Shown: positions 6,395 through 51,943, numbered from the whole stretch's first letter. The stretch: 58,335 nucleotides of DNA, filler included, from Sphacelaria rigidula (GCA_964200075.2; 9 parts of 9 records of this genome joined end to end with filler, not necessarily neighbours in it), one strand, 5' to 3'. Notes: a model not told the origin generated them from the letters alone. Numbers and translations are program-made.

Positions 6395-6494
6395 NNNNNN
6401 NNNNNNNNNNNNNNNNNNNNNNNNNNNNNNNNNNNNNNTTAATTAATTAANNNNNNNNNNNNNNNNNNNNNNNNNNNNNNNNNNNNNNNNNNNN
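6395..6494. other. Artificial contig linker N44-TTAATTAATTAA-N44
   Basis: Exact 100-bp pattern repeated 8 times; core has stop codons in all six frames. Confidence 0.97.
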
Positions 6495-6608
6495 AATGCC
6501 CGTTTTCAGTGTAGACTGTCGAATTTTGTGTACCCACGACATAGTCGCTCTCCACCGTTGAGCATGGTATAAGAAAAAATCCGACAGTCTACACTGAAAA
6601 CGGGCATT
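6495..6608. repeat. Hairpin/mini-TIR element with a SINE-tail-like loop
   Basis: 27-bp perfect inverted repeat (6495-6521 vs 6582-6608); loop resembles the SINE tail at 28805-28855. Confidence 0.75.
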
Positions 6609-12888: not shown

Positions 12889-12988
12889 NNNNNNNNNNNN
12901 NNNNNNNNNNNNNNNNNNNNNNNNNNNNNNNNTTAATTAATTAANNNNNNNNNNNNNNNNNNNNNNNNNNNNNNNNNNNNNNNNNNNN
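12889..12988. other. Artificial contig linker
   Basis: Same 100-bp pattern. Confidence 0.97.
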
Positions 12989-19381: not shown

Positions 19382-19481
19382 NNNNNNNNNNNNNNNNNNN
19401 NNNNNNNNNNNNNNNNNNNNNNNNNTTAATTAATTAANNNNNNNNNNNNNNNNNNNNNNNNNNNNNNNNNNNNNNNNNNNN
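19382..19481. other. Artificial contig linker
   Basis: Same 100-bp pattern. Confidence 0.97.
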
Positions 19482-19581
19482 ACAGACTCCGCCCCCCCCC
19501 CCCCCGATACATGTTGACATCTGAATAGTACCAGTCTCCCTCCTCCTCCTCCTCCTCCTCCCTCCTATCACGCCCTCACAG

Positions 19582-20807
19582 CAGCGCAAGAAAAATGGTA
19601 CCAGTGTGAGCAGCACAAATGGCAAGAATCAGCGCCCTGCGTCACCTTCATCCTCAGCGCGTAGTGCCGCTACCGGTGCCGCCGCCGCCACCGGTATCGG
19701 ACAGGAACATCACGGAACCCGCCACCCTGACCATTTCACTGCGGCTCCTTCCTCTACAACTCCCTCCCGTCAGCAGCAGCATTGGTCCACCACCCACAGC
19801 AACATAAACAACAATAGCGGCAACAGCAAGGGTTCCGCAACCGCGATGATGCACCCATTCCCAGCGTCCGGACCCCCCTCCCCTTCGACCACAGCGACAG
19901 TACCCTCGTCTTCGGATGTTCATCGAACCAACATCCGCTCGAGCAGCGCAGGCAACGGCGATCTCATCAACAGTAGCTACGTCCACCTCTTGTCATCGCG
20001 AGGCAGTGGAGAAGCGGGAGAAGGAATGGTGTCGACGCGAGACAACGGCGAGCACGCAACCGGAGCGGGCGGCGGCGAAGGCGTAGGGCGAGAGTTTGAG
20101 ACAAACTCGCCGCCCGCCACCAGCAAGAGCTACCACCGAGATACATGTGCTCCACACGGCGGCGGTGACGGGGGTGACGATGGCGTTCTTGAGGTAGAAG
20201 GAAGCAGAATACACGCTGATGGCTACAGCAAAAACGACCACTCCCCCGTAGCGACAACACCACGAGGGAACAGTAGTAGTGCCGGGACAAGGCACGGAGA
20301 AAACGGACACGAAAGCGGGGCATTTTCGTCTCCGTCCGTCTCCGCGCACGCCACCGCTGGCGCCGGTGCTGGCGCCGCCAATAGATATCCCTCCCCATCA
20401 CAACGTCTCGGGCCTCGAAGCAGCCCCGAGCGCAACCGCTGGGAAGACCCGACAGCAGGTGCAACGACAGGTGACGGGGACAGCAACGGGCGCGGCTGGC
20501 CCGGCAGCAGCATCAGCAGCGGCCATCGGGAATACCAGGGCGGGAGGGATGCAGCAGTAGACTCCGTGCTTGCTCCTGCGGGGCTTGCGCCGCCGCCACC
20601 CCCACCGCCCGCGGGGGATGGCAACAATGGTGCTACTTCGCGCGGTACGAGGTCGTCTGTGGGGTCTCACCAGCCGTCTATGTCGGGGGCGGTGGCACCT
20701 GGGGGAGCGCCTGGACGAGGAACAGGAGAGGGAAGGGAAGATACGAATCTTGGAACGGCGGCGGGGGGGGGTCCGGTTGCGGGTGGGCAGATAATGGGTT
20801 TAGAGAG
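19582..20807 (+). CDS. Large exon, Ser/Gly/Ala-rich disordered protein of unknown function
   Basis: About 400 open codons; polypyrimidine-cag acceptor; gtgag donor. Confidence 0.75.
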
Positions 20808-22404
20808 GTGAGCTTGAGGATGTTGTTGGACCGGTGAAAATACGGATCAACAGATTTTGGATCAAGTGAAAGAAAACTGCAGCTCTAATCACTGTTGTTT
20901 TTTTCCTACAGAAGCTATGTTTGATATCTGCCCGTTGGCTTTTGGGTTGGGCTGGGTAGGATGCGATGTCAACGTGTTTTCGGGGGTGGACGCAAGGAGG
21001 GGAGTTCTTTGATAGTCTGATGGGCCCATGCATGACTTCGTCTACGGCCATCTTTTTTGTACCTCGACGCATATTTTTTTTGAAAATTTTGAAAGTGTGA
21101 TGTGCGTGGTGTGGGTAACCAGTGGCATCCTACACGGGTCTGTGAGGTCCACAACACCCAACATGCGACCGTAGTCAACATTACCGGGGGATGGGGTGCA
21201 TGCGACCTCGAGGTCTCATCCAGAGGGTGTGATACACTGCGTACAGGTCATCCGCGCCGTAGCTCACGGATGCGTCTCACTTGCAGTTAAAAGGTGCAAG
21301 TCGGCGATAACTGTTGCGAAATATTCACCGGAGACATGATATTGGTACTGTTTGGAATAAGAGTACAATATATGGGATCGACGGGCATCTATCATCTATA
21401 TAAAATATGCTGTCTACTAGACGTTATAGCTATTTGTAGCAAATGAAGAAAACGCGAACTCGAATACGCCGATATCGTGCGACATTTCGATGTGATGATA
21501 TATCCGATGCGATACGATTTTTCAAGACTGGTGAGGGTCAATATTACAGTGAGAGCGCTCGCGTGCCGTGGCATGTGTCGTCTATCCCCATCAGTCGCCT
21601 CATCGTGCTTGTTCATCATGCTCTTTGCTCTCTATGCTTTTTATGACTTCGCGTGTTATTGCCACCATTTTGTTTGTCATTATAGTTCATCGTTGTTTCC
21701 GCACATTAGCCCGACCTCTCAAACCCGTGGTCACGTTTAGTCTGATGTAAGTGAGTGTTATTATGGTGCTGTATGGTGAACCTGTTTCCTTGCCTCTTTT
21801 TGCGTGTGTTGTTCGCGTTTTTCCATCGGGCTCGCAAGGTCGGTGCTGGAACAAATGCTGTCGTCGCATATGTCCGGCCTTAAAGATGAGCTACGGCAGG
21901 AAATACGAAACCTTCACGTCGACGTGTTACGACAGTTCCACTCTTTACAGGTATGTATTTTGAAACTGAAAGCATGAACAACGGAAACCACACATCCGGT
22001 CGGCTACAACAATCACCTCTCTCGACAGGAAGTACAACAAATATTATTTGGAGATATACGCATACTATACGAAGATAAATCGAATGACTTGACCGCTCCT
22101 TCCTCGAAAGGGCATCGTAGTTTTTCCCAGGAGTTTTTGAACGCATACGGAGGAGGGGCCTAGGTCGATCGACTGGAACGAATTTTGTGACACGTTTTCG
22201 CTGCTTGTCCGATTTGACAGAGTGCGCTCGTAGCTCGCCTTGAAATGTACTCTGTACAGGTGAACATCCTCGTAAATCCTTCCCACATGATGGCACGCGA
22301 AGATGGTGCAGGTTGGGCGTGTCATCACTGACCCTTGGCACTGTCGCTGGCTACTACTGTAGCGTTACCGCAGCCCTCGAGTATTCGTCCGACTTGTGAC
22401 TGAA

Positions 22405-25874: not shown

Positions 25875-25974
25875 NNNNNNNNNNNNNNNNNNNNNNNNNN
25901 NNNNNNNNNNNNNNNNNNTTAATTAATTAANNNNNNNNNNNNNNNNNNNNNNNNNNNNNNNNNNNNNNNNNNNN
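25875..25974. other. Artificial contig linker
   Basis: Same 100-bp pattern. Confidence 0.97.
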
Positions 25975-26272
25975 CTACCCCAGTTGTTCCTCGCCGGGGC
26001 AATGGGACACGGGACGGCGCGGGGGGTGGGGGGGGGGGGGGGGGGGGGACCGTTTCTGATCGTTTTAAACAGCCCCGAAGCAACGGTCAATATTCGATTG
26101 CAAGAGTAATTACCACTGACATACTCTGTCAACACTGGGAGTGTTTTTCCTTGCGTGCATCCACCTCGTGACAACATACAGCCTCAGATTTCTCCGTCCC
26201 CTGCGCTCGCTGGACCATGTTTTCATCTCGCGAACAAATCAAAACGCCGGCCACTCTACTGTATCTGCGTAG

Positions 26273-26402
26273 TTACCTCGCCAGGGAGGGCGCAGCTCTG
26301 ATTCGAAAGGCCGTCTTCGTGTCCGGACGAGACAAAGTTTCGGTGAATGCTTTGAGGAACGTCCTACGAGCGAGCGAGAATCCCGTCGTGAAACCCGAAG
26401 AG
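26273..26402 (+). CDS. Pyruvyltransferase-TPT fusion gene, exon a (5' part lies off-contig)
   Basis: YLAREGAALIRKAVFVSGRDKVSVNAL matches the S.RD..S motif of polysaccharide pyruvyltransferases; gtaag donor. Confidence 0.75.
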
Positions 26403-26977
26403 GTAAGATGTCTGGATAGCGGAGATAGGGGAGGGGGCGGTGCCTGTTCAAAGCAAAGGGAGCAGGATATTCTGAAAAATTGGAATGGACGTTTCTCATG
26501 AGAACGAAAGTTTTTCGGTGGTGTTTGGAATAGTGAAAAATGGTATACTCTACCCCAAGACCGCACCTTCGATCGAATTATTCGATGGTTTTCAGATTTG
26601 TGGGGAGTGGTCCCCTTTGCAGGCACCTTCGAGGGCAATGGAGATTCAAAAAACCTTTCGGGGGGACTCCAGCTCTCTCGAAGGTCCCTTTGAGCGGCAT
26701 CAATTCCCACAATTCCGAATGTCATCGAAAACTGTTTGTTCTCATGAAAAAATCTCATACCCACTTTGCACAATCCCCTGTTGGGGGATGAGGGTTACAT
26801 GCACAGGCAGCATTTCTCCCGATTTCGAAATGTGTTGTTCGACACGCGGTAACTACAAATATGAGCCCGATTCATTCCAAACCTGCGATACATGGTCGAA
26901 GAGGCGGTGGTCTCTCTTGCAGTTCTCGTGGTGTTTTTTGCTGTTGACTTCATGACCCCGTGCGCGGGATTACGTAG

Positions 26978-27056
26978 GTACAACTTGTGAGAGATCCTGT
27001 GCTGAGCGATAGGACGCTCTCGGACCTGGACGGCAAGTGCTGGAAACAAAGCGAAA
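26978..27056 (+). CDS. Fusion gene exon b (VQLVRDPVLSDRTLSDLDGKCWKQSE)
   Basis: tag/gt boundaries; phase 0 in, phase 1 out; carries the DP motif expected after RD..S. Confidence 0.7.
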
Positions 27057-27803
27057 GTGGGTTCACGAGTGAGACGAGCAGTGATGGGATCCACCGGTTC
27101 CGCGTAAAAATTCACTGAACCATGATTGCCAAGAAAAACGTTTTCACGAATGTCGACGTGTGCTTGACAAAAAATGCAACATATGTGAGAAACCGAGAGA
27201 GAGCGAGCCCCGAGGAGGAGGGGAGGGGGAAGAGGTAGGGGAGAGCAGTATCGCAAAAACGAACCGCCGTTGGTCGCGGAAAGTTGAAACCCTGCGCTTT
27301 GCACTTTGTTCAGCAGAGGATACTACGCGTTTCTCCGGCACATCCTCGATTTTGTGCCAAGTTTACACCACCGAACGGCCCTCTTGCAACAAATGTCTGC
27401 CTTAAACACCCTTGTGCGGTGCTGCGCCATAGAGGGAAGCGTGTAGTCCTGACTCCGTCTACTCCATTCCGAATTCGCGGAATTCTAGAGGAGTGACCGC
27501 CACGTACACAGCTGTTGCACTTGCAACATCGATAAGCGCATGTGAAAGGTTTTCGAGGAATCTCCCAGTGCTCGACGCGTTCAAGTCACATCAGCCGTGG
27601 CACGAATTGGTCCGACCAAGCGGGAAGTACACTCAACCACAAGACGCACTTGGGTATTCTTCACGCTCCATTCAAATATGCTACTTCTTTCCCCATCTCA
27701 CCGACAGTGACGGCTGATTTTTCATAGTTCTTCTTCCATCAATGTGTAACACACCTTTTGCCGTGCTCGCGTCCGAAACGGCCCCTCATAAAACAATCAA
27801 CAG

Positions 27804-28204
27804 GTCAGCTGTCTCCTCTGTGTTTTGTACTACCAGCCTCAAATTCGGCTGCGCTGGTCAGCCTACACGACAATCTGGTGACCAATATTGTGCGGAAGGG
27901 TGACGTGTTCTTCAACGTCTTCCCGAAGCACCAGGAAGAAATTGAGGCGCACAACTACCCGGAAGAAGTCAGGGCTATGCTGAACCCAAGAGACTTTCGA
28001 AAGACCCTCTGTCAGTGCCGAGCCATCGTCTCGAGTAGAATGCATGGAGTGGTGTTGGGATTACATATGGGAGTCCCAACCTTAGGCGCATGGTCAAAGC
28101 CTGGTTCGAACAAGACTCCGGATCTACTGAAAGAAGTGATGTTGCTTCCGGACCAATTTATTTGCATTGACGGAAACACAACTCGGTCAAGTCTCGACGC
28201 CCAG
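27804..28204 (+). CDS. Fusion gene exon c, pyruvyltransferase C-terminal motif
   Basis: AIVSSRMHGVVLGLHMGVP = R.H..GVP signature; cag/gtgag boundaries; phases compatible. Confidence 0.8.
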
Positions 28205-28804
28205 GTGAGGAACTCGCACGACTGGCAAATATATGGAATTCGCGGTGACACGCTTTATTGGCTCCTCGAGAAGGAAAACGTTATTATCACCGCTAGATGC
28301 ATGTCCCGCAGTAAGATAGGGTGTGTTTCGACAGAGGCACCATCCCCTTTCCTCACCCGAGTTTATCTTGTGGCTGGTGTGCTACATGTTTGCTGCGAGC
28401 AACTCTCGACTCTGCCGTGCAATAAATTCCCAACAACGAACGGCAAAGACCGCCGTATCTAGCCAAAATATCCCGCGCCGGCCACCCTGCGAGTCCATCG
28501 GTCGTCCGTTCACCGCGAGGTATGGTCATCGACCAATACAAGCAACTTAGCTTAGTTGGCATATACACATAGACACGCGGTCGACAAGAAATATATTAAT
28601 GTATGGTCATCTCACCCGACGTTCTTCCACGAAATCTGACCTAGTTATAGCAAGTGGATGTTACCTACGAAGCACCTGACCATCCTCCTGCTGCATACGG
28701 TCAACTCTTGTTGCCGACTGTGAAAGATGTGTTGGACAGTGTAAGCACAGGTCAATAATACGCGGTGGCCAGTCTCGCCGGATGGTCATCCGTGAAATCA
28801 AAGT

Positions 28805-28943
28805 TTGTGTACCCACGACAATGTCGCTCCCCACTGCTGGGCATGGTGTGAGACAAAACCCTAGATCGTACGGCTTCACCGAGATTCGAACCCTCGTCTC
28901 AACCGTCAAAACAATTCGAGGGTAGCAACTGAGCCACCGGGGC
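28805..28943 (-). mobile_element. tRNA-derived SINE in intron
   Basis: Minus strand gccccggtggctcagttg (A box) and ggttcgaatc (B box), followed by a non-tRNA tail. Confidence 0.7.
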
Positions 28944-29163
28944 AACCGGCCTCGTGCACTACAACTTTGTCGGCTATGAAACTCAGTGCTGGGAAACCCA
29001 GCTGAAGTCAAGTTCCATGTATGTATGCTCACGTCCATTCCAAGGCAATCACGACGAGCGGTTCCGAGACACCTCAAACTAAATTACTGGGCACTCTCGT
29101 GTTGTATGACACATATTCATACCATTGCCCGAAATTCCAATTCTTGTATTTGCATGATCGCAG

Positions 29164-30993
29164 GTAGAAACGGTGGAAATCGTATACTCCAGCGGAAATC
29201 GCCGGGCCCATATCCACGCATTTCTGGCCACGCTATTTCATGACTTCGAGGCGCAGGCAAGACACGTCATGAAGCTTTTGGCACCATCCTTGGCCCTCGA
29301 ACCTCATTCCGGAAATACCTCCAATATTGTCAAGCAAAATCTTAACACTGTCAAGCAAAAGTTGAACAGTTCAAGTATTTCAAACATCATGGATACGTTG
29401 AGAACGAAGAACGAGTCCAACGAAGCACTCGGCGGTGCCATATCCAAGCCGACCGCCGGCAAAACAAACGCAGGACAAGAGGTAGCTTCAAGGGCTCCTG
29501 ACGAAGAGGCAGAAGAACAGATCGGGCAGCCGGCGAAGGCACCGGCATGGGCCACAGGTTCGATGGCACATGACCTCCCCGTCGGATCTACTCTAGCGAC
29601 TGCTCTACAGCGCAACTCCCAGAGTCCGAAACCTTTATCGCAGAGGCTGCCGCGAGTCGACAACACCCCAAGTAACAGTGATCATTTAAGTAACAGTGAT
29701 CATTTTGCCATCTTGAGAAATTACGGGGTCACGGCTTTGCTGCTAGGATATATTGTGGCGTTGTCGCGCCGTCGCCACGTATACTCCAGCACAAGGAACG
29801 CATCTTATGCAAAAAAAGAAATACTGGTGATGGCAGATGACACGGATGGTGCCGACATCACCGCAAACACTGAGGAACCCATTCAGCGTCCGGTTTCGTC
29901 AGCCTTGTCCGTCGTTGCTCCCACCTCAGGGACCACCGCTCCCAATTCACCACTCACCCCGCAGCGGGCAGATCCTAAGCCCGGGGGGGCTCCGGCTACA
30001 GATTTCGTTGCTTGGATTTTAACCGCAATAGGTTTCAGCGCCTACGGAAAATCGTATCTACGCGATACCCGAGACCCCTTGGGACTTCTAGCCCTGCAAG
30101 GTCTGACAGGCGTGGTCGTGTTGATTGGGTTGGAAAGGTGTGGGATGTTGGATTTGAAGCCAGGACATGAGTTGTTCACGGCCGTGCGCGGGCGGGCGAG
30201 GTGGGCGCCGACGTTGCGTGCTAGCCAGGCTCTGCTAACCAATGTCGCCGTGCTCTGTGGAGGGGTCGCCGCGACAAACGCCCTGAAAGCTATGGAGCCT
30301 GTAGCAGCCGCGATCCTGTCATATTTCTTGCTGGGAAAGAGAGTAGACCGCATCCGGTTCGTTGCGATCTTCACGATAATCCTCGGTATCGTTGTGCTCA
30401 CCTCCAAGAGTGGTTGGGACACGGAAGGAGGCGGAAGTAATGTGGGTGCCAGCATGGACACCAGCTCTGGGAATAGAGGTGGCGAAGGCTTGGATGTTTT
30501 CACGTCTGCCTTGGTGACCTTTGCTGCTGTCTGCTGCAACGCGCTTCGTAACGTGGTGTTGAAACAGGAAGGTCCAACTTCTCCCTATGCGACTCTGTTC
30601 GTGTGCAGTGTGGCGGCATCGATTGTCGGTGCCGGTTTGCTTGTCTCCCGGCTTTTGCTGGGGGACCCAACAATACCACATCATGTTGCGGAGCTATCGT
30701 CATCACCGGACTCGGGCGGTTCTAGTCATTGGCTTCAATTGCCTGGGATCAACGCCGCACTGTGCTTTGTGGGCCACGGCTTCGCGTCATTTAATCTTCT
30801 AGCGGTCCTCAGTCCAGCGGGCCATGCCGTGGGGAATTCGTGCGAGCGAATACTGGTATTTGCGAGCGGATTGGTGGTGCTAGGGGAGGTCATGTCCTGG
30901 AGGCAGTTAGTTGGCGCATCGGTGGCTCTGTGTGGTTTTGTAGGATATAACACAGCCGGATTGTGGCAGGAGGCCTTCTTAATCAAGTCATGA
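29164..30993 (+). CDS. Fusion gene terminal exon: linker, one TM helix and a TPT-family (triose-phosphate/PEP or nucleotide-sugar transporter) domain
   Basis: 609 codons plus stop; ALKAMEP, NALRNV, LSPAGHAVGNSCERIL and GASVALCG are TPT-type motifs; many hydrophobic segments; cag acceptor in phase with exon c. Confidence 0.88.
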   Translation, partial: VETVEIVYSSGNRRAHIHAFLATLFHDFEAQARHVMKLLAPSLALEPHSGNTSNIVKQNLNTVKQKLNSSSISNIMDTLRTKNESNEALGGAISKPTAGKTNAGQEVASRAPDEEAEEQIGQPAKAPAWATGSMAHDLPVGSTLATALQRNSQSPKPLSQRLPRVDNTPSNSDHLSNSDHFAILRNYGVTALLLGYIVALSRRRHVYSSTRNASYAKKEILVMADDTDGADITANTEEPIQRPVSSALSVVAPTSGTTAPNSPLTPQRADPKPGGAPATDFVAWILTAIGFSAYGKSYLRDTRDPLGLLALQGLTGVVVLIGLERCGMLDLKPGHELFTAVRGRARWAPTLRASQALLTNVAVLCGGVAATNALKAMEPVAAAILSYFLLGKRVDRIRFVAIFTIILGIVVLTSKSGWDTEGGGSNVGASMDTSSGNRGGEGLDVFTSALVTFAAVCCNALRNVVLKQEGPTSPYATLFVCSVAASIVGAGLLVSRLLLGDPTIPHHVAELSSSPDSGGSSHWLQLPGINAALCFVGHGFASFNLLAVLSPAGHAVGNSCERILVFASGLVVLGEVMSWRQLVGASVALCGFVGYNTAGLWQEAFLIKS

Positions 30994-32110
30994 TCGGTTG
31001 CGGCCTACGAATATGGTAGAGGCAAAAGGGAAAGCTGTGGTATATATTCTCTGCTTGTTGAGGTGTAGACTTACCGGGGGAGGGGAAAGTGGCAAGCATG
31101 ACTGCGGGGGTCATAAAAATGAATTTGTGCAGTCGTCGGAAGACACCACGCCCCCAAACAGGCGCCCGACGATTCTGAAGTGGCTCGTGCCAATCCGGAC
31201 AAGGAATCTAGGTAGTCAGTCTGCTAGGTCCTGAGTATTGGTCATAGATTGTTGTCACCAAGGCAAAACGTGCGTTTAAGCACGGGGAGTCGGGGTGGCT
31301 CTCAGGGTCCGTAGACCGTAATACTGGCATTGTTACTATTCGCCACGTCGAAACTATGCTAAGATGTTATGAAGAAACAAAGTAGGCCTAGTGAATGATG
31401 CCTGGGCGCTGCCTGGGCTATGAGAAATCCGCACTGTGCTTGGAAACAACTTTGACAATATATTTTCCCCCCGAAAGTAATATATGGTGACCTGGGCCTT
31501 ATCTGAGTTGTGATAAATCTACGTTTGGCTAGGGGATGACTATGAGACATCCGCAGTTGACTTAGAAATAACTGAAGAATTGCTGTTTGCCCAAACATGT
31601 CAGCTGAGACCGGCAGCGTATGACCCCTGGGAGAAGAGTCGTAACGCCCCTCAGCTTGTATGCCAGAAAAAGGAGGAAGGTATTCATCCCAAAACGTCTT
31701 GTGGTAACCCGTGTTGTCCAAGAGAATGTTCGATGATTCGCGGGCAGTCGGCTAGCGGTTTCCATGTGATTGCAGCGATCCACAACTACGCAGAAAACCA
31801 CAGTGTATAGCTCAGATGTCAACATTCAGGGAGAAGGGTGGTCGTACGTTCTATCTTACGGTTGTTGCTGGACGTCATCGGCGGAAAGGTGGTGTTCCTG
31901 AAATGGTAGCTCCTCAAATCGACAAATGCGCGTACGGTGCCTCTTTATGTATGAGACAGTTTTCTTTCACAATGTAGCATGGGCGGAGGGGATCAGCATC
32001 TACAAGAGTAAATTACAGATTTGGGGTTGATTACAACACGCATCGTGAGTGCTGTACGTTGTAACATGAAATAGGAGGTCGCTGAGAAGCGGGTCGATGT
32101 TGTCGAACAT

Positions 32111-32160
32111 GGAGGAGGAGGAGGAGGAGGAGGAGGAGGAGGAGGAGGAGGAGGAGGAGA
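32111..32160. repeat. (GGA)n microsatellite
   Basis: Direct observation. Confidence 0.9.
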
Positions 32161-32367
32161 AGAGGGAAAAGGTTCCTTAGACAACGATGGGTATGATCTT
32201 CGGAACATGAACAGAAGGGTTGCCGGACAACAGTACGTTGTATGAAGGAACCAGACCCCTCGAAGTATCTAGCCGTGAGAGGAAGTGGAGGGGGAAGAGG
32301 GGGTGTAATCATCATCATACATGCCATAGTCATCAGACAATTGACCTCGCATCCCTACAAAGCCGGG

Positions 32368-32467
32368 NNNNNNNNNNNNNNNNNNNNNNNNNNNNNNNNN
32401 NNNNNNNNNNNTTAATTAATTAANNNNNNNNNNNNNNNNNNNNNNNNNNNNNNNNNNNNNNNNNNNN
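32368..32467. other. Artificial contig linker
   Basis: Same 100-bp pattern. Confidence 0.97.
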
Positions 32468-37639: not shown

Positions 37640-38665
37640 AGGAACGTGAAGTTGGTGGAGAGGTTGGAAACAGTACAGATGGCAGCAGCTAAGAAAATAC
37701 TCGGATGCTGAAAACGACGAGTAACACAGTTTTGAGAGCAGAGTTGGGAATGCACTCACTCAAAACAAACAGAGACATGAGGAAATTGCGATGTCAGTAT
37801 AGCGTAAAGAACATGCAGAGAAGGAGATTGCCAGCTATTAACACGGGATCTTACAAATTGGGGATGAATCTTATCTTGGGGATGAGAAACCCGGAGGACT
37901 AAAATCTTCGTATCCACACCAAATCTTCGAAACATGGTTCCATTTCTTCACCTACTGATAGCTATTGACAACTGCTACAAGCCACAGAAATTTGGATTTC
38001 GATAACCGGCACGTTGGGGTCCTAAGTGGAAAAACAATTTTAGGGAATCGCGGGTGTCCGAACGGACGCCAAAATGGTTCCGAAATTGGTGTTTGACCTA
38101 GGACCCCAAGATTTCGGTGGTCGAAATCCAAATCTCTACGGTGTGTAGCAGGTTTCAATAGCTATCAGTAGGTGAAGAATTGGGACCATATTTCGAAGAT
38201 TAGGTGTGGATACGAAGATTTGAATTCTCCGGGTTTCTCCCTATAAAAGATCCATCCACAATTCGTAAAATCCCGTGTCCATGGTTGATAGGGCTGTATG
38301 GAAGACAAGTACGAAAGAACAGACTGGAGTAATGTGGGATAAAGAAGCCGAGAAAATTTAGAAGGAGCTAGGAGGAAACCAAGACGAAATACTGTCTATA
38401 GGTGAAGACGCGGGGTACAAGGCAAAAGTAAAAGATATGATCGAAATAAGGGAGAAAGGAGCGCTCAGACGCAAAGTAGATGAGGAAGAACACCTGGAGA
38501 TATACGNNNNNNNNNNGCGAAAAAGATGAAATTGCGATTTCGGGTGGGGGACCTAGACCTGCCAGAAAGGAGGAAGAGATGTACCAGTCGTCGAAGGGAC
38601 GAGGAAGTAGATGGACAGAACTGCCTCTGTGCCGAGGCGATAGAGAGCAGAAGTCATATAGTAAC
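37640..38665 (+). mobile_element. RTEX-like LINE fragment starting at the MITE C-run and interrupted by a foldback
   Basis: KTTSNTVLRAELG..RRLPAI|VDRAVW..gacctagacctgccagaaagg. Confidence 0.8.
37841..38278. mobile_element. Foldback element (~185-bp inverted arms)
   Basis: acacgggat..ggtcctaagt vs acctaggacc..atcccgtgt; splits the LINE reading frame. Confidence 0.85.
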
Positions 38666-38859: not shown

Positions 38860-38959
38860 NNNNNNNNNNNNNNNNNNNNNNNNNNNNNNNNNNNNNNNNN
38901 NNNTTAATTAATTAANNNNNNNNNNNNNNNNNNNNNNNNNNNNNNNNNNNNNNNNNNNN
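38860..38959. other. Artificial contig linker
   Basis: Same 100-bp pattern. Confidence 0.97.
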
Positions 38960-45351: not shown

Positions 45352-45451
45352 NNNNNNNNNNNNNNNNNNNNNNNNNNNNNNNNNNNNNNNNNNNNTTAAT
45401 TAATTAANNNNNNNNNNNNNNNNNNNNNNNNNNNNNNNNNNNNNNNNNNNN
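45352..45451. other. Artificial contig linker
   Basis: Same 100-bp pattern. Confidence 0.97.
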
Positions 45452-45652: not shown

Positions 45653-47689
45653 TCTTTTACCAATTTCATGCATCGGAATGATATCGCTCGCCACTCGGCC
45701 AAACGTACACGCCAGCCGATCAAACATGCACATTGGGCCCTCCGTTTGGCAGCATTTTTCGGGTGTAAAGACGAGACAACAGCTTCACAGTGTGACTTAT
45801 ACCGTCGAGAAGATGGACAATAACAAAATCGTTCAAATCTTCCGGATTCACAGAATATGCATCCTCATTCGTCAGTCGGAGAGGGGTATACCAGGTACAA
45901 ATTTTGTGCTTCTTTTCATTTTTTTTTTCCAGCCCCACAGTCGAACTGCACGCACCAAAGCATCGGCAAAGTGTGCCGGAATCTTCTTCACCTGCGGCAA
46001 GTCATGCCGAGCTACTGCGACTTTCACTTTTGATGGGGTTATACTTCCCCGTGAGGATTGACGAGGTGGAAACTGTTCAGAAACAGAAGAACAATCCAAA
46101 CTTCTACGAAATAATGGTTGCTACTTCGACTTGACTTCGTCTACTGAATCGTCCTGTTCGATTTTTTTTGCTTTTTCTGTCCTTTCTTTTCCTCAGCGAG
46201 TGTTCCAATATCAGCTTTGTTTTCTTGGTCACGTGTATCATGAGACCGCGGCTGGACCGCTGAGGGGTCAGTTGAAGTGCGACAACCAATCTATCAATCG
46301 ATCAAACTCCCTCATAGCGAGTCAATCAGGAATGACAGGGCTATGAGTATCGACCAACAGCCTTGTTTCTTGACGAAGATCAAAGGTTGAAAATTGAAGC
46401 TATTGTGGGGAATGTCGAGCAGTGTTGAAGGTGCAGGGCAACTCCATTCAGCAGCTGTTGACCGTTGTGGATCTCAATCTCGACATCTCTGGAACACTTC
46501 TGCTGTGCGCGCTGGACCCAGTCGCAAAATATACATTGAACATCGAGTTCAACGTCTTTTTTTCTCCTCACAGCGACTCGATTTCTCTCGAGAAAAGTAG
46601 CTTAACACTGACTTATGTTGCCCATGTGGATTGTGGCAAAATGCTGAGGTAGTGACTCCCATCAGGGTAAAAACGGTTTTCATGTGTGACAGTTTTTCGC
46701 GGGTCAAATCCTCCGCCTTTGCGACATTCGAGACGGTTTTTGCCCCCCTCCCCCCCCGAAGAGGGAATATCGCCGTCACATGTCTAGAACACTTCGCATC
46801 ACCCCACCGACATGAGTCCAGCCCATTTTTCTGATTCACTCGGCGCTGAGGTTTCGAAAACGGCTCCCGGACAAAAATACCGCTTGACGAAAGAATGAGG
46901 TGTCTACAAGAGTTTTCGCTTGACTGGTCTCTGGAAAAAAGTTCGGCTGGGGGAGAAAATGAGGTGTCTTCAGGTATTTTCGCCCGACTAGTCTCTGAGC
47001 AAGGATTTGCCTGGGGAAGAAAATGAGGTGTCGGTAGGTGTTTTCCGGTGGAAAACACGCAGATATCGACTTTGTTCATTCAATCCATACTTTTGTCCTG
47101 AGGCCACTCTCGGAATATCGAAGCCAAGCAAAGGGGGAAGGTGCGCTAGAGTTATCTCGGTGGGATGATGCAACGTGTTGCAAGACGTGTAACGGCGATA
47201 TTCCTGTGTGAAATGCGAAGACCGTGTGAAACGTCCCGGAAGCGGAGACACGAGTCATATATGCCCCGCGAAACATACCAATGAGAAGGAACGGTCTAAT
47301 ACGGTCTACGATCGTAATGTCAAGGAGTCAAAAGTGACCAAAGAATGATGAACCCGACGTACTGGTGTAAAGATCGTGTTGAGTTCGTGAGCATGGGGGC
47401 GATCACCAATCACCTACTGCTAGACCTGGGAAAACATCGATGAAAACGACAAAAACGATGGAGGGAATTGGTGGCAACGACAATAAAATTAAGAGCCAGC
47501 GTAATTTGTTCGGAATACTCTTCTCTACTTCACCGCCCATAAGAACACCCTCTCTTGCAAGGTGCTTTGTTGCCTTCCCCCCCCCTTTCTGGTTTTCCTC
47601 ATACTCGACCAAAAAATTCCGCTCTAACCTGTTATTCACACCCGACACAAAGTTTCTTCATGTCTTCTATACCTCCCCGTCCTCAACAG

Positions 47690-48516
47690 GCTGGCTTCAC
47701 TGCTACGCGAACTTGGCAGAGATGTACAAGACACAGGAGCGGTTTGAGGAAGCCTCCAACCTGCTCACGAGGATGCCCTGGCTTCCTACCCCACAGCAAC
47801 AGGGGACACCAACCACAACCGTTACCGCCTTGAACTCCACCGGCGATGACTCCACCCTCAGCCCCGACGGTGTGGACACCTCGCCCTCGTCGACCCACGA
47901 ACCGGCGGCCTTGCCGAGCCAAAACTCGAGCACGGAGGCCAAGATGCCGCCAGGCAGCGGAGGAACCAGTAACGGCTCTTCTGTGTGGAAGCCAGCGGGG
48001 GGGGATGAAGCGGACTTGATTGGTGGAGATGGGGGCGCGACGTGCGATTTAGATGTGAAGAGCGGCGACAAGGCCGCCGAGAGCGCGCAAAATGCCGGGG
48101 ACACGGCGAGAGATGGCTCGGCAACGGAGGCGACAACAACAGGGGAAAATAAAAGTTCCGCGGAGCTTTCTGGAAAAACGGCCTCCTTCCCCGGCGGGAG
48201 CAACGGCGGCGGTGGTGGTGGCGGCGGCAGCCGCTCCGACACGTCTTCAGTTCGAGGCGCCGGTGCCGCGAGGGTCGCTGGCCTCAACAAGGCGGCAATT
48301 GCGGCGTCCGCGGCCGCTTCTGCTGAGTCGGCAGGGGTCACTGCCCAGGCGGTGGAGACCCGTGTGGAGGCGGAGGTGCGTCGGGCTGTCGAGCGGCACG
48401 CGGAGGCCATGCGAGCGAGCATGAACGAGTTGGCGGGCGAGCTTGCGGTGACGACGGCTACACGGCCGGCGGCGTCGCAGGAGTGGCTTGACTCTCGTGT
48501 CGCGGCTGCTGAAGAG
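47690..48516 (+). CDS. Exon of unknown protein (TPR-like helix then low-complexity region)
   Basis: WLHCYANLAEMYKTQERFEEASNLL; cag/gt boundaries; GC3-rich. Confidence 0.75.
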
Positions 48517-49197
48517 GTTTGTCTCTTGAGTATCTCTTGTTTTTTTCTGGAAGGCGGCGTTGAGTGTGTCCCACGTCGTGGGTCCGCTTACCGACAGGAG
48601 ATAGGTTCGGGGGTATGTGTGTCTGTCGGTTAGTTTGTTTTTTTGCTACACTTCGTGAGGGACAAGCACGGATGACGCGCGCGTTTGTTTCCTTCGGCGG
48701 TTGGATCGTCCGACGAGAAAAGCCGCCCGATTTTGATCATGAAATGTTCGCCGAAGGAAATAAGTTGCAGCACACAACATCCGACGAGTGTTTCGAGGGA
48801 TATACAAACAGCTCATGCGAAGAATGCGATGACAAGGATGGGGACACAAAAATTCACGAGCAGAAGGCTTTTCCCGTATTTGACCCCATCGGATGTCGTG
48901 AACGTGAACTCGTAGCCCAGCCTGTTGGACATCAAATACAACGTTTCGACCACGAAGCTCGTTCGTACCTGCGGTGTGACGGCTTTTTTTTTTGCGTCCA
49001 CATGCACGAGAAAGCCATGCTGTGGACGAGCCAGAGGGTATTGAATGACTCACTTCATTTATTTCTTCCTTCTCCCTCATTCCTGTTCCAATACGTGTAC
49101 ATGTCACATTTGCTTCTGTCAGCTTCGCGTGTTCGGTCTGCTTCTGTACTGTTGTTTGTTGTTGTGTGTTTTCCGATCAATCGCGCGGACGCTTCGT

Positions 49198-49237
<40 letters not shown>

Positions 49238-49391
49238 TTCCCTCTCTAAGCTGCANNNNNNNNNNCCTCTTTCCCCCCCCTCCCCGCTCCCCTCTTTTTT
49301 TTGTTTTTTCCCCCCACTCCCGCGGCCCCTCCTTTCCCCCCCCCCCCCCCCCCTCCTTTCCCCTTCTCATGATGTTATCACTGAAGAACAG

Positions 49392-49568
49392 GTGTTGGCC
49401 GCTGTGCGCGCCGGGTTGCTATCTGGAGGAAGCGGTTCAGACGCAAACCATGCCGCCGCTGGGGACAACTCCGCTCACAGTGCGGTTGACGTCCCCGTAT
49501 TGCCCATTGGAGTGCCAGGGCACGCCGATATCTTGCGCGAAGCCAGTCACTACCTCTCAGCAATCAAG
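49392..49568 (+). CDS. Next exon of the same gene
   Basis: cag/gtga boundaries; 59 codons; phase 0. Confidence 0.7.
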
Positions 49569-49814
49569 GTGAAGTCATTCGCACGATGTCCGGGTTATGC
49601 CTACATATGACGCGGTTGGGGGTAGGGTAGTTCATCGAAAACATCGCTACATTTGTTTTTTACCGGACGGTTCCGTCCCCAGCGTTTCATGAGCTCGGCA
49701 CGGCTGGAGGCTACCCGCGGCTTTGGAAAACCTGGTGTCTCGAATCATCACTTCGCAATCCATCCTCTCTGGGCGTCTCAAATTCTACTTCGGTCCCCCC
49801 TTTCCTTCTTGCAG

Positions 49815-51843: not shown

Positions 51844-51943
51844 NNNNNNNNNNNNNNNNNNNNNNNNNNNNNNNNNNNNNNNNNNNNTTAATTAATTAAN
51901 NNNNNNNNNNNNNNNNNNNNNNNNNNNNNNNNNNNNNNNNNNN
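51844..51943. other. Artificial contig linker
   Basis: Same 100-bp pattern. Confidence 0.97.

What the first reader, a model, noticed from the sequence alone, without database searches (positions are those of the whole stretch)
26273..30993. Spliced fusion of a polysaccharide pyruvyltransferase to a TPT-family (putative PEP) transporter
Seen: four exons (26273-26402, 26978-27056, 27804-28204, 29164-30993) join through canonical GT-AG sites with matching phases (0, 1, 0) into one frame. That frame carries pyruvyltransferase motifs (VSGRDKVS, RDPV, SSRMHG..GVP), a linker, one hydrophobic helix, then a multi-TM TPT domain. Known: these enzymes use phosphoenolpyruvate as donor, and in fission yeast Golgi pyruvylation needs Pvg1 plus separately encoded TPT-family PEP transporters (Pet). 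Inference: a single polypeptide could import PEP into the secretory lumen and hand it to its own catalytic domain. This would imply glycan pyruvylation in a lineage where I know of little evidence for it. I am not aware of this architecture being described but cannot search. The ORF track alone shows only the transporter half.
Basis: partly seen in the sequence, partly recalled or inferred. Interest (0 to 1): 0.88.

Follow-up and report, generated by a model that had tools for sequence, protein, structure and literature searches.

The report
Brown-alga pyruvyltransferase fused to transporter
A brown-seaweed gene joins a sugar-pyruvylating enzyme to a membrane transporter that probably supplies its donor molecule, which points to a cell-surface sugar modification not yet reported in brown algae.

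Summary
The window is a chain of ~6.4 kb contigs, and the gene lies on contig 25975-32367 of the brown alga Sphacelaria rigidula. NCBI already models it as a 5'-partial 817-aa "unnamed protein product". Pfam finds PS_pyruv_trans and TPT above their thresholds.

The fusion does not depend on the 28204/29164 splice. Exon 4 alone encodes the last helices of the pyruvyltransferase fold, a linker, one extra membrane helix and the 10-helix transporter. 26 of 40 relatives carry both domains, and all named ones are brown algae from eight genera. Unnamed eukaryotic proteins carry the reverse order, again with exactly one helix between the domains.

Among solved structures the transporter is closest to a plastid phosphate translocator and keeps its Lys/Lys/Arg phosphate site. 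This copy, however, has Glu at one of those Lys positions.

Most likely reading: a lumenal pyruvyltransferase tethered to a PEP/phosphate antiporter. This matches fission-yeast Pvg1p plus Pet1p/Pet2p, made as one polypeptide. No paper describing it was found, and no RNA or biochemical evidence was obtainable.

The parts
25975..32367 (.). The 6393-nt contig that carries the gene, flanked by artificial N44-TTAATTAATTAA-N44 linkers
   Evidence: One search lists the N runs. One search gives the longest contig of P0004 as 6393.
26271..26402 (+). First exon present (an internal exon; the 5' exons lie beyond the contig end). It encodes the 'VSGRDKVS' motif at 26319-26342.
   Evidence: An AG acceptor sits at 26271-26272. 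Homology to relatives starts here.
26978..27068 (+). Exon 2 with the 'VRDPV' motif (26987-27001).
   Evidence: the NCBI model needs 27068; the 27057 donor is also GT and in phase.
27804..28204 (+). Exon 3, the C-terminal Rossmann half of the pyruvyltransferase. It holds the PEP-site motif SSRMHG (28031-28048) and the Lys in GSNKTP (28103-28120).
   Evidence: Pfam PF04230 E 4.2e-9. The R-x-H...K stretch aligns to Pvg1p 5ax7. Residue roles come from PMC10435577.
28205..29163 (+). Intron 3 (959 nt, GT-AG). It contains a high-copy tRNA-like repeat on the minus strand at about 28830-28950.
29164..29280 (+). Start of exon 4: the conserved C-terminal helices of the GT-B pyruvyltransferase fold
   Evidence: Gap-free alignment to 21 relatives. 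The helices have pLDDT 75-92 in the model. GT-B matches reach model residues 383-403. The same segment ends the reversed-order protein P0073.
29281..29706 (+). Low-complexity, length-variable linker (lumenal by inference)
   Evidence: pLDDT below 50 in the relative's model. Unaligned and variable in A1.
29707..29763 (+). Extra single transmembrane helix, followed by an Arg-rich stretch
   Evidence: Hydropathy scan in 9 of 9 proteins examined. Helix 455-476 in the model. Flank after the helix: mean K+R 1.7, D+E 0.0.
29764..30003 (+). Second linker between the extra helix and the transporter (cytosolic by inference)
30004..30993 (+). TPT/DMT 10-helix transporter domain and stop codon. The Lys204-equivalent is in LKAMEP (30283-30300), His at the Tyr339 position is 30775-30777, and Glu at the Lys362 position is 30844-30846, followed by Arg.
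   Evidence: Pfam PF03151. Profile hit to 5y78 at E 1.2e-11. VIA Z 29.4 on a relative's model. Site table; coordinates.

Best explanation
This is a real, conserved brown-algal gene, here cut at its 5' end by the contig. It encodes one membrane protein with four parts:
1. An N-terminal ketal-pyruvyltransferase of the PS_pyruv_trans family (GT-B fold), placed in the lumen of the secretory pathway.
2. A flexible linker.
3. One membrane-spanning helix that returns the chain to the cytosol.
4. A 10-helix TPT-family antiporter related to plastid phosphate translocators.

The most likely mechanism is as follows. The transporter imports cytosolic phosphoenolpyruvate in exchange for phosphate. The tethered enzyme transfers the pyruvyl group to a glycan and releases phosphate, and that phosphate is the counter-substrate for the next import cycle.

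Shown here: the fusion, both family memberships, the fold, the helix count, conservation across brown algae, and conservation of the PEP-site and phosphate-site residues in the family.

Inferred: lumenal location, PEP as the substrate, the acceptor glycan, and any direct hand-over.

The Sphacelaria copy in this window keeps the enzyme's PEP-site residues. It has Glu in place of one of the two phosphate-binding Lys of the transporter, so it may transport poorly, transport differently, or depend on a partner copy.
For: Fusion:
- Exon 4 is one open frame, and one tblastn match (relative P0025 residues 300-912 onto 29161-30960, E 3.5e-84) runs from the enzyme's C-terminal helices to the end of the transporter.
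- Those helices align without gaps to 21 relatives.
- They lie inside the GT-B fold matches (model ranges to 383-403; to 346-352 in the domain model).
- 26 of 40 homologues carry PF04230 and PF03151, and 3 of the other 14 still hold the enzyme's tail.
- Relatives from unnamed assemblies have 905-949-aa products on 3.4-4.2 kb contigs. That leaves little room for introns.
- Named members are all brown algae: Sphacelaria, Ectocarpus spp., Scytosiphon, Undaria, Hapterophycus, Cladosiphon, Nemacystus, Pylaiella.

Topology:
- There is a hydrophobic N-terminal segment in 8 of 9 full-length models, i.e. 6 of 7 distinct N-termini.
- One extra helix is present in all 9 proteins scanned.
- The model has 10 helices in the transporter.
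- Loops on the side of the transporter's ends are net +3.6; the opposite loops are net -3.1.

Transporter:
- 5y78 (GsTPT2) is the only solved structure found by sequence (E 1.4e-6, 3.8e-10 and 1.2e-11).
- It is also the best fold match: Z 29.4, rmsd 3.2, 285 aligned, 21% identity, against 23.9 for the next.
- Lys204, Lys362 and Arg363 of GsTPT2 bind phosphate, and exchange is strictly 1:1 (bioRxiv 10.1101/169169, passages).
- Their equivalents are all intact in 17 of 22 family members.

Enzyme:
- The R-x-H...K PEP-site motif aligns to Pvg1p and is intact in 18 of 22 members, including this one.
- The reaction releases orthophosphate from PEP (PMC8615578, passages).

Precedent: Golgi Pvg1p depends on the PEP transporters Pet1p and Pet2p (PMC4872226 and PMC6801904, passages).

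A second architecture:
- P0073, P0188 and P0189 have TPT, then one helix, then the pyruvyltransferase. All three keep the Lys and Lys-Arg motifs.
- The enzyme domain of P0073 is sister to the brown-algal clade (SH-aLRT 98 for the joint clade).
Against: - No transcript evidence for this species: no RNA holder was listed and no splice joint was seen.
- No assay of any kind was possible.
- In this copy the Lys362-equivalent is Glu (21 of 21 others have Lys) and the Tyr339-equivalent is His. Mutating these residues greatly reduced Pi exchange in GsTPT2.
- The transporter scores far below the curated cut-off of the plastid translocator model TIGR00817 (46.6 bits against 317.9). It is not a canonical PPT.
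- The residue that distinguishes PPT from TPT (position 262) could not be aligned.
- One full-length model (P0044) shows no signal-like N-terminus.
- The N-terminal half of the enzyme, including the equivalent of the acceptor-binding Asp106 of Pvg1p, is missing from the contig.
- The linker is long and variable, which argues against rigid docking of the enzyme on the transporter.
- Pyruvylated glycans have not turned up for brown algae in the papers searched.
- 11 of 40 homologues show only the transporter part. They may be truncated ORFs, or real shorter forms.
Confidence: 0.6

Rival explanations
1. The protein is a true fusion, but the TPT domain does not carry PEP. It could move another phosphorylated metabolite or a nucleotide sugar for the acceptor glycan, only export the phosphate produced, or serve mainly as a membrane anchor or sorting module.
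For: The domain falls far below the pPT subfamily cut-off. Nucleotide-sugar and nucleotide transporters share the fold at Z 21-24. The PPT-specific pocket residue could not be assessed. Substrate cannot be read from sequence.
Against: The phosphate-binding Lys/Lys/Arg triad is kept in 17 of 22 members. GsTPT2 stands 5.5 Z units above the next fold match and has 21% identity against 10-15%. The only fused partner is a PEP-dependent enzyme, in two domain orders. The yeast precedent also points to PEP.
Confidence: 0.22
2. This Sphacelaria copy is a diverging paralogue whose transporter half is inactive or re-specialised. It could be a pseudo-transporter, or the regulatory or partner subunit of a heteromer. 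Canonical copies elsewhere in the genome would do the transport.
For: Glu replaces the Lys362-equivalent in this copy only. It also differs from 90%-conserved residues at 11 positions in the TPT part but only 3 in the enzyme part. A second, 79%-identical Sphacelaria fragment (P0079) keeps Lys-Arg. Other paralogues also carry site changes (P0046, P0021, P0185, P0058). Yeast uses two transporters, Pet1p and Pet2p.
Against: All four exons are open with canonical splice sites. The rest of the transporter is well conserved. The DNA contigs of run X1 agree with the window at every base laid. That run may be the source sample, so it is not independent evidence.
Confidence: 0.3
3. The fusion is a gene-model artefact: two neighbouring genes (a pyruvyltransferase and a TPT transporter) were wrongly joined by prediction.
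For: The old Ectocarpus siliculosus model P0031 (496 aa, 'putative phosphate/phosphoenolpyruvate translocator precursor') holds only the transporter half. No RNA junction reads were obtained here.
Against: Exon 4 alone contains conserved enzyme-fold helices and the transporter in one ORF. P0031 itself starts inside the linker and includes the extra helix. Independent unnamed assemblies give single products with both domains on short contigs. Both-domain models exist in eight brown-algal genera.
Confidence: 0.04

Closest known systems
Schizosaccharomyces pombe Golgi pyruvylation system: pyruvyltransferase Pvg1p plus PEP transporters Pet1p/Pet2p
   Same: It pairs a PS_pyruv_trans-family, PEP-dependent enzyme in the secretory lumen with membrane transporters that bring PEP from the cytosol (PMC4872226, PMC6801904, PMC10435577; passages read). 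The R-x-H...K PEP-site motif aligns. The fold match to 5ax7 is Z 13.2, rmsd 3.6, 15% identity.
   Different: In yeast the parts are separate genes, and Pvg1p is a type II protein with an N-terminal anchor. Here they form one chain with a signal-like N-terminus and a C-terminal helix leading into the transporter. Sequence similarity to Pvg1p is marginal (E 0.036). Relatedness of the TPT domain to Pet1p/Pet2p could not be tested because no sequence was available to the tools.
Plastidic phosphate translocators (pPT: TPT, PPT, GPT, XPT); structure GsTPT2, PDB 5y78/5y79
   Same: It has the same 10-helix DMT fold and is the best sequence and fold match. The Lys204/Lys362/Arg363 phosphate site is conserved in the family.
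   Different: The domain scores far below the TIGR00817 cut-off. It has no plastid targeting logic and is fused to an enzyme. This copy has Glu and His at two of the four phosphate-site positions.
Bacterial CsaB-type pyruvyltransferases, including CsaB fused to MurJ-like flippases
   Same: They belong to the same Pfam family, with weak hits to TIGR03609 CsaB. The ESM Atlas lists bacterial clusters that combine PS_pyruv_trans with a membrane transporter domain (MurJ) (a lead, not tested).
   Different: The bacterial fusion partner would move the lipid-linked acceptor, not the donor. The bacterial enzymes act at the cytoplasmic face, where PEP is freely available.
Unnamed eukaryotic TPT-helix-pyruvyltransferase proteins (P0073, P0188, P0189) and a GT64-pyruvyltransferase protein (P0080)
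   Same: They have the same two domains with exactly one helix between them. The enzyme domains of P0073 and P0080 are sister to the brown-algal clade.
   Different: The domain order is reversed. The TPT domain of P0073 is only 27% identical to a brown-algal one. P0188 and P0189 carry a different pyruvyltransferase subtype. The organisms are unknown; an ESM Atlas cluster label 'commonest Mollusca' is only a lead.

Membership tests
PS_pyruv_trans (Pfam PF04230), ketal-pyruvyltransferases | Match to the family HMM above the gathering score | tested here: met
   P0004 scores 40.4 bits and exon 3 alone 37.1 bits, against a cut-off of 25.3. Full-length relatives score up to 80.5 bits.
PS_pyruv_trans (Pfam PF04230), ketal-pyruvyltransferases | GT-B two-Rossmann fold like Pvg1p (5ax7) | tested here: met
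   Tested on models of relatives, not of the truncated window protein. GT-B enzymes match at Z up to 15.5. 5ax7_B matches at Z 13.2, rmsd 3.6, 239 aligned, 15% identity, rank 30. It was not in the Foldseek lists shown.
PS_pyruv_trans (Pfam PF04230), ketal-pyruvyltransferases | PEP-binding Arg/His/Lys (Pvg1p R337, H339, K361; CsaB R306, H308, K328) | tested here: met
   A profile alignment to 5ax7 covers R-x-H...K. The window protein has Arg, His and Lys at these columns. Residue roles come from PMC10435577.
PS_pyruv_trans (Pfam PF04230), ketal-pyruvyltransferases | Second PEP-binding Arg (Pvg1p R217) and acceptor-binding Asp (D106) in the N-terminal half | tested here: inconclusive
   Invariant R-D and D-P motifs are present in the window protein, but their equivalence to R217 was not aligned. 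The region that would hold the D106 equivalent lies beyond the contig end.
PS_pyruv_trans (Pfam PF04230), ketal-pyruvyltransferases | PEP-dependent pyruvyl transfer with phosphate release | not testable with these tools
   Needs an enzyme assay.
TPT family (Pfam PF03151) of the drug/metabolite transporter superfamily | HMM match above gathering score and a 10-helix DMT fold | tested here: met
   66.9 bits against a cut-off of 30. There are 10 helices in the model of relative P0044. 5y78_A matches at Z 29.4.
Plastidic phosphate translocator subfamily (NCBIfam TIGR00817 tpt; includes PPT) | Score above the curated subfamily cut-off | tested here: not met
   46.6 bits for P0004 and 37-103 bits for six relatives, against a cut-off of 317.9.
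Plastidic phosphate translocator subfamily (NCBIfam TIGR00817 tpt; includes PPT) | Four phosphate-binding residues (GsTPT2 Lys204, Tyr339, Lys362, Arg363) | tested here: not met
   The window protein has Lys, His, Glu, Arg. In the family, Lys/Lys/Arg are intact in 17 of 22, and the Tyr position is Tyr, Phe or His. The numbering offset of 89 was deduced from the alignment together with the residue numbers given.
Plastidic phosphate translocator subfamily (NCBIfam TIGR00817 tpt; includes PPT) | PPT-type pocket residue (Asn instead of Phe262) | tested here: inconclusive
   The middle of the domain did not align to 5y78 by sequence.
Golgi PEP transporters Pet1p/Pet2p of S. pombe | Orthology or closest similarity to Pet1p/Pet2p | not tested
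   No Pet sequence could be obtained. Word-indexed searches returned only brown-algal relatives.
Secretory-pathway (lumenal) enzyme | Signal peptide or anchor before the catalytic domain, and an odd number of helices between it and the transporter | tested here: inconclusive
   Met in relatives: 8 of 9 full-length models have a hydrophobic N-terminal segment, and one helix lies between the domains in all. The charge bias agrees. The window protein's own N-terminus is missing.

The most novel reading that the evidence does not exclude
A self-feeding pyruvylation module. The enzyme sits on the lumenal side of its own strict 1:1 PEP/phosphate antiporter and regenerates the antiporter's counter-substrate with every catalytic turnover, so donor supply and catalysis are stoichiometrically locked in one polypeptide. 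The module arose at least twice in eukaryotes: enzyme-helix-transporter in brown algae, and transporter-helix-enzyme in other, still unnamed eukaryotes. It predicts pyruvate-ketal glycans in brown-algal cell walls or glycoproteins, a modification so far known from red and green algae, fission yeast, a sponge and a sea hare.
Probability: 0.35. Interest if true: 0.8.

Novelty: new variant of a known kind. Interest (0 to 1): 0.62.

Why it matters
Brown-algal walls (fucose-containing sulfated polysaccharides, alginate, glycoproteins) matter ecologically and commercially, yet their biosynthetic enzymes are mostly unassigned. If the reading is right:
- Pyruvylation becomes a further anionic modification to look for in brown algae.
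- This multi-copy family provides candidate genes for it.
- It would be a natural 'Rosetta stone' linking TPT-family transporters to PEP supply for lumenal pyruvyltransferases in eukaryotes. So far that link has been shown genetically only in fission yeast.
- It would offer a compact two-in-one module for engineering pyruvylated (sialic-acid-like) glycans in heterologous hosts.
- The Glu-bearing Sphacelaria copy and other paralogues with site changes give natural variants for testing the phosphate site.

Tried and rejected
RNA evidence:
- The look-up of sequencing runs listed no RNA holder.
- Read laying on X4, X7, X1 and X5 gave DNA-like contigs and no joint at 26402/26978, 27056 or 27068/27804, or 28204/29164.
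- One 175-nt contig of a run only guessed to be RNA lies in exon 4. It says nothing about splicing.

Other tools that gave nothing:
- No whole genome is held for the window.
Docking was therefore not tested.
- Earlier-findings look-ups gave nothing.
- The published GsTPT paper's DOI is not held; the preprint was read instead.

Sequence and fold searches:
- phmmer and the A1 profile did not reach Pvg1p. The A2 profile reached it only at E 0.036.
- Foldseek did not list 5ax7 among the rows shown.
- Exons 1 and 2 alone give no Pfam hit.
- Searches for non-brown-algal named relatives of the transporter returned only the family itself.
- ARAGORN and Rfam found nothing on the contig.
- Seven long ORFs on other contigs of the window had no Pfam hit.

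One search showed a 4-residue difference, which resolved.

Site changes across paralogues: 2 of 4 enzyme-site variants also have transporter-site changes, against 3 of 18. The numbers are too small to use.

Literature: ten searches found no paper that joins pyruvyltransferase terms with TPT/PF03151 terms, or with Ectocarpus/Phaeophyceae genes. The library lacks most subscription journals.
- The Phaeoexplorer preprint was read as passages only. The passages returned for 'pyruv' were all indole-3-pyruvate (12 of 14 matching places were shown), and 'triose' and 'translocator' do not occur in it.
- Its supplementary tables of composite genes are closed and may list this family.

Full report
**What the window is**

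The 58,335-base window is not one stretch of chromosome. It is nine contigs of about 6.4 kb joined by N44-TTAATTAATTAA-N44 linkers. The finding lies on contig 25975-32367 (6393 nt). A homology search with the exon-4 product returned a 100%-identical, 817-aa "unnamed protein product, partial [Sphacelaria rigidula]" on a contig of exactly 6393 nt (P0004). Neighbouring contigs carry no synteny information. No whole genome is held.

**Check of the observation**

The three introns have canonical GT-AG ends, and the joined exons give a single frame with only the terminal stop. The NCBI protein is reproduced exactly by exons 26271-26402, 26978-27068, 27804-28204 and 29164-30993. Exon 2 ends at 27056, a GT donor in the same phase 12 nt upstream, which removes four residues. 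The first exon is started 2 nt later. Homologues vary in length at exactly that spot, so the two donors cannot be told apart without RNA.

Pfam confirms both domains above their gathering scores. PS_pyruv_trans scores 40.4 bits and TPT 66.9 bits on P0004. Exon 3 alone gives PF04230 at E 4.2e-9, and exon 4 gives PF03151 at E 1.1e-18. The single hydrophobic helix between them is at residues 390-408.

The contig begins 296 nt before the first exon. The N-terminal ~265 residues of the enzyme domain, which carry the GNMGD and GGGG motifs in full-length relatives, are absent from the whole window.

**Is the fusion real?**

No RNA evidence could be obtained. No RNA run holding the locus was listed, and the laid contigs show no splice joints. 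Three other lines of evidence support the fusion.

1. It does not rest on the 28204/29164 splice.
   - Exon 4 is one 611-codon open frame. Its first 39 residues are the conserved C-terminal helices of the enzyme domain.
   - These residues align without gaps to 21 relatives.
   - They are confidently helical in the AlphaFold model of relative P0044 (pLDDT 75-92).
   - They fall inside the GT-B fold matches: model ranges reach 383-403 and 346-352 in the domain-only model.
   - They form the very C-terminus of the reversed-order protein P0073.
   - One tblastn segment of relative P0025 (residues 300-912) covers 29161-30960 at E 3.5e-84.
   - Reading through intron 3 instead gives an unrelated tail and then a stop (ORF 27728-28462).
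2. The architecture is conserved.
   - 26 of 40 homologues have both Pfam domains.
   - Of the 14 others, 3 still carry the enzyme's tail. The other 11 begin in the variable linker or at the extra helix. They may be truncated ORFs or genuine shorter forms.
   - The exhaustive representative search added full-length members of 908-1200 aa.
   - Named members come from Sphacelaria, Ectocarpus (several species), Scytosiphon, Undaria, Hapterophycus, Cladosiphon, Nemacystus and Pylaiella.
   - Several paralogues occur per genome, for example two on one Scytosiphon contig.
3. Unnamed assemblies give both-domain products of 905-949 aa on contigs of 3.4-4.2 kb (P0024, P0052, P0014).
   - That leaves little room for introns. 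I infer these are spliced transcripts or intron-poor genes.
   - P0024 clusters at 90% identity with a Pylaiella gene model.

**Anatomy and topology**

The model of P0044 has mean pLDDT 61 and pTM 0.44, and its linkers are disordered. It shows a two-Rossmann domain, two long C-terminal helices, a disordered linker, one helix (455-476), a second linker and ten helices (569-906).

Several observations bear on orientation:
- Eight of nine full-length models (six of seven distinct N-termini) have a hydrophobic, signal-like segment before the enzyme domain. P0044 does not.
- The stretch just after the extra helix is positively charged (mean K+R 1.7, D+E 0.0).
- Loops on the same side as the transporter's ends are net +3.6, and the opposite loops are net -3.1.

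By the positive-inside rule (established knowledge), the transporter's ends face the cytosol, as in Golgi nucleotide-sugar transporters, and the enzyme faces the lumen. This is inference. The window protein's own N-terminus is missing.

**The enzyme half**

The domain-only model (P0048 with alignment A2; pLDDT 70.9, pTM 0.69) matches GT-B enzymes at Z up to 15.5. It matches yeast Pvg1p (5ax7_B) at Z 13.2, with the lowest rmsd (3.6) and the highest identity (15%) of the rows listed, at rank 30. Foldseek's shown rows did not include 5ax7.

A profile of this subfamily reaches 5ax7 only at E 0.036, over the R-x-H...K stretch. According to PMC10435577 (passages), those are the PEP-binding residues: R337, H339 and K361 in Pvg1p, and R306, H308 and K328 in CsaB. 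The window protein has all three (SSRMHG and the Lys in GSNKTP), plus the invariant R-D and D-P motifs. Four of 22 aligned paralogues have lost one or more of them.

In a quick maximum-likelihood tree of 38 enzyme domains:
- The seven brown-algal domains form a clade (SH-aLRT 94).
- That clade is sister to P0073 plus a GT64-pyruvyltransferase protein, P0080 (SH-aLRT 99).
- The joint clade (SH-aLRT 98) stands apart from 27 stand-alone or differently fused, probably bacterial, enzymes.

**The transporter half**

By sequence, the only solved structure found is the Galdieria triose-phosphate/phosphate translocator 5y78 (E 1.4e-6, 3.8e-10 and 1.2e-11). By fold it is also first: Z 29.4, rmsd 3.2, 285 residues aligned and 21% identity. 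The next match, SLC35B1, is at Z 23.9, and nucleotide-sugar transporters are at 21-23 with 10-13% identity.

The preprint of that structure (10.1101/169169, passages) reports the following:
- Lys204, Lys362, Arg363 and Tyr339 bind the phosphate.
- Mutating them greatly reduces exchange.
- pPTs exchange strictly 1:1.
[quoted passage not shown] The family columns are Lys, Tyr (or Phe/His), Lys and Arg. Lys/Lys/Arg are all intact in 17 of 22 members.

The domain is nevertheless not a canonical plastid translocator. TIGR00817 scores 46.6 bits for P0004, against a cut-off of 317.9.

In the window's copy, the Lys362-equivalent is Glu (GAG, 30844-30846), where 21 of 21 others have Lys. The Tyr position is His. 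This copy departs from 90%-conserved residues at 11 transporter positions but only 3 enzyme positions. A second, partial Sphacelaria copy (P0079, 79% identical) has His but keeps Lys-Arg.

**Mechanism proposed**

Ketal-pyruvyltransferases use PEP and release orthophosphate (PMC8615578, passages). [quoted passage not shown]

A lumenal enzyme tethered to a pPT-like 1:1 antiporter would import PEP, transfer the pyruvyl group and release phosphate. That phosphate is what the antiporter needs to export for the next cycle.

A second architecture supports the coupling. P0073, P0188 and P0189 have the transporter first, then exactly one extra helix, then a pyruvyltransferase, and all keep the Lys and Lys-Arg motifs. 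P0188 and P0189 carry a different enzyme subtype. The transporter domains of P0073 and a brown-algal member are only 27% identical, while their enzyme domains are 35% identical. This suggests separate fusion events but does not prove them.

The long, variable linker argues for a tether rather than a rigid dock. The docking test could not be run because the queue stayed full.

**Comparison with what is known, and novelty**

The system works like Pvg1p plus Pet1p/Pet2p made as one polypeptide. Membership of PF04230 and PF03151 is met. Membership of the pPT subfamily proper is not met. Relatedness to the Pet proteins could not be tested.

The gene is already in public databases as an unnamed product, and precomputed Pfam annotations show both domains. 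None of ten literature searches found a paper that describes the fusion, a brown-algal pyruvyltransferase or pyruvylated brown-algal glycans. The 2019 review lists red and green algae, yeast, a sponge and Aplysia, but not brown algae.

I rate it a new variant of a known kind.

**Verdict**

My confidence is about 0.9 that the fusion is real, 0.6 for the enzyme-plus-PEP/phosphate-antiporter reading at family level, and lower for transport competence of this Glu-bearing copy.

Noticed in passing
window 6395-6494, 12889-12988, 19382-19481, 25875-25974, 32368-32467, 38860-38959, 45352-45451, 51844-51943: The window is an artificial chain of nine contigs joined by N44-TTAATTAATTAA-N44 linkers (stop codons in all frames). 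Neighbouring 'genes' across linkers are not syntenic. Two further 10-N gaps lie at 38507-38516 and 49256-49265.
   Followed up: yes
window 28830-28950, minus strand (intron 3); weak copy at 6519-6582: A tRNA-like repeat with D-loop-like and T-loop-like boxes. It has about 86 times the depth of its flanks in DNA run X1 (5528 against 64), and it is also the only part of the stretch held by the two runs guessed to be RNA. ARAGORN and Rfam call nothing. It is probably a tRNA-derived SINE-like element.
   Followed up: partly
proteins P0073, P0188, P0189 (unnamed ENA/Logan/JGI records): These are reversed-order fusions: a TPT transporter, one extra helix, then a pyruvyltransferase. P0188 and P0189 have a long middle region and a different pyruvyltransferase subtype. 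The organism is unknown. An ESM Atlas cluster of 60 members with both domains is labelled 'Eukaryota, commonest Mollusca'.
   Followed up: partly
protein P0080 (1270 aa, unnamed ENA record): A glycosyltransferase family 64 domain is fused to a pyruvyltransferase of the same clade as P0073. This hints at which glycan-building step the enzyme clade accompanies.
   Followed up: no
protein P0038 residues ~45-120 (Cladosiphon okamuranus paralogue): A Cys-rich N-terminal module precedes the enzyme domain. It recurs up to nine times in other proteins of the representative search (e.g. P0059, P0069). P0038 and P0059 gave no Pfam family there. It may be a carbohydrate-binding module specific to brown algae.
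   Followed up: no
alignment A1, paralogues P0047, P0025, P0021, P0185, P0046, P0058: Several brown-algal paralogues have lost PEP-site residues of the enzyme and/or phosphate-site residues of the transporter. Two (P0021, P0185) have lost both. They may be pseudo-enzyme or pseudo-transporter copies.
   Followed up: partly
protein P0031 (Ectocarpus siliculosus, 496 aa): The long-standing annotation 'putative phosphate/phosphoenolpyruvate translocator precursor (ISS)' starts inside the linker and includes the extra helix. It is probably a truncated model of a fused gene rather than a plastid PPT precursor.
   Followed up: partly
window 26019-26049 and about 32070-32150: There is a long G homopolymer right after the contig start, which may be why the assembly broke there. 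A CCT-type microsatellite lies near the contig's 3' end.
   Followed up: no
window 19525-20811 (+), 47383-48633 (+), 48564-49610 (+): Open frames of 348-428 codons on other contigs of the window gave no Pfam match at E 0.001.
   Followed up: partly
ESM Atlas rows for P0044: There are bacterial clusters in which CsaB-type pyruvyltransferases are fused to MurJ-like flippases. This is another enzyme-transporter pairing in the family, presumably for the acceptor rather than the donor.
   Followed up: no
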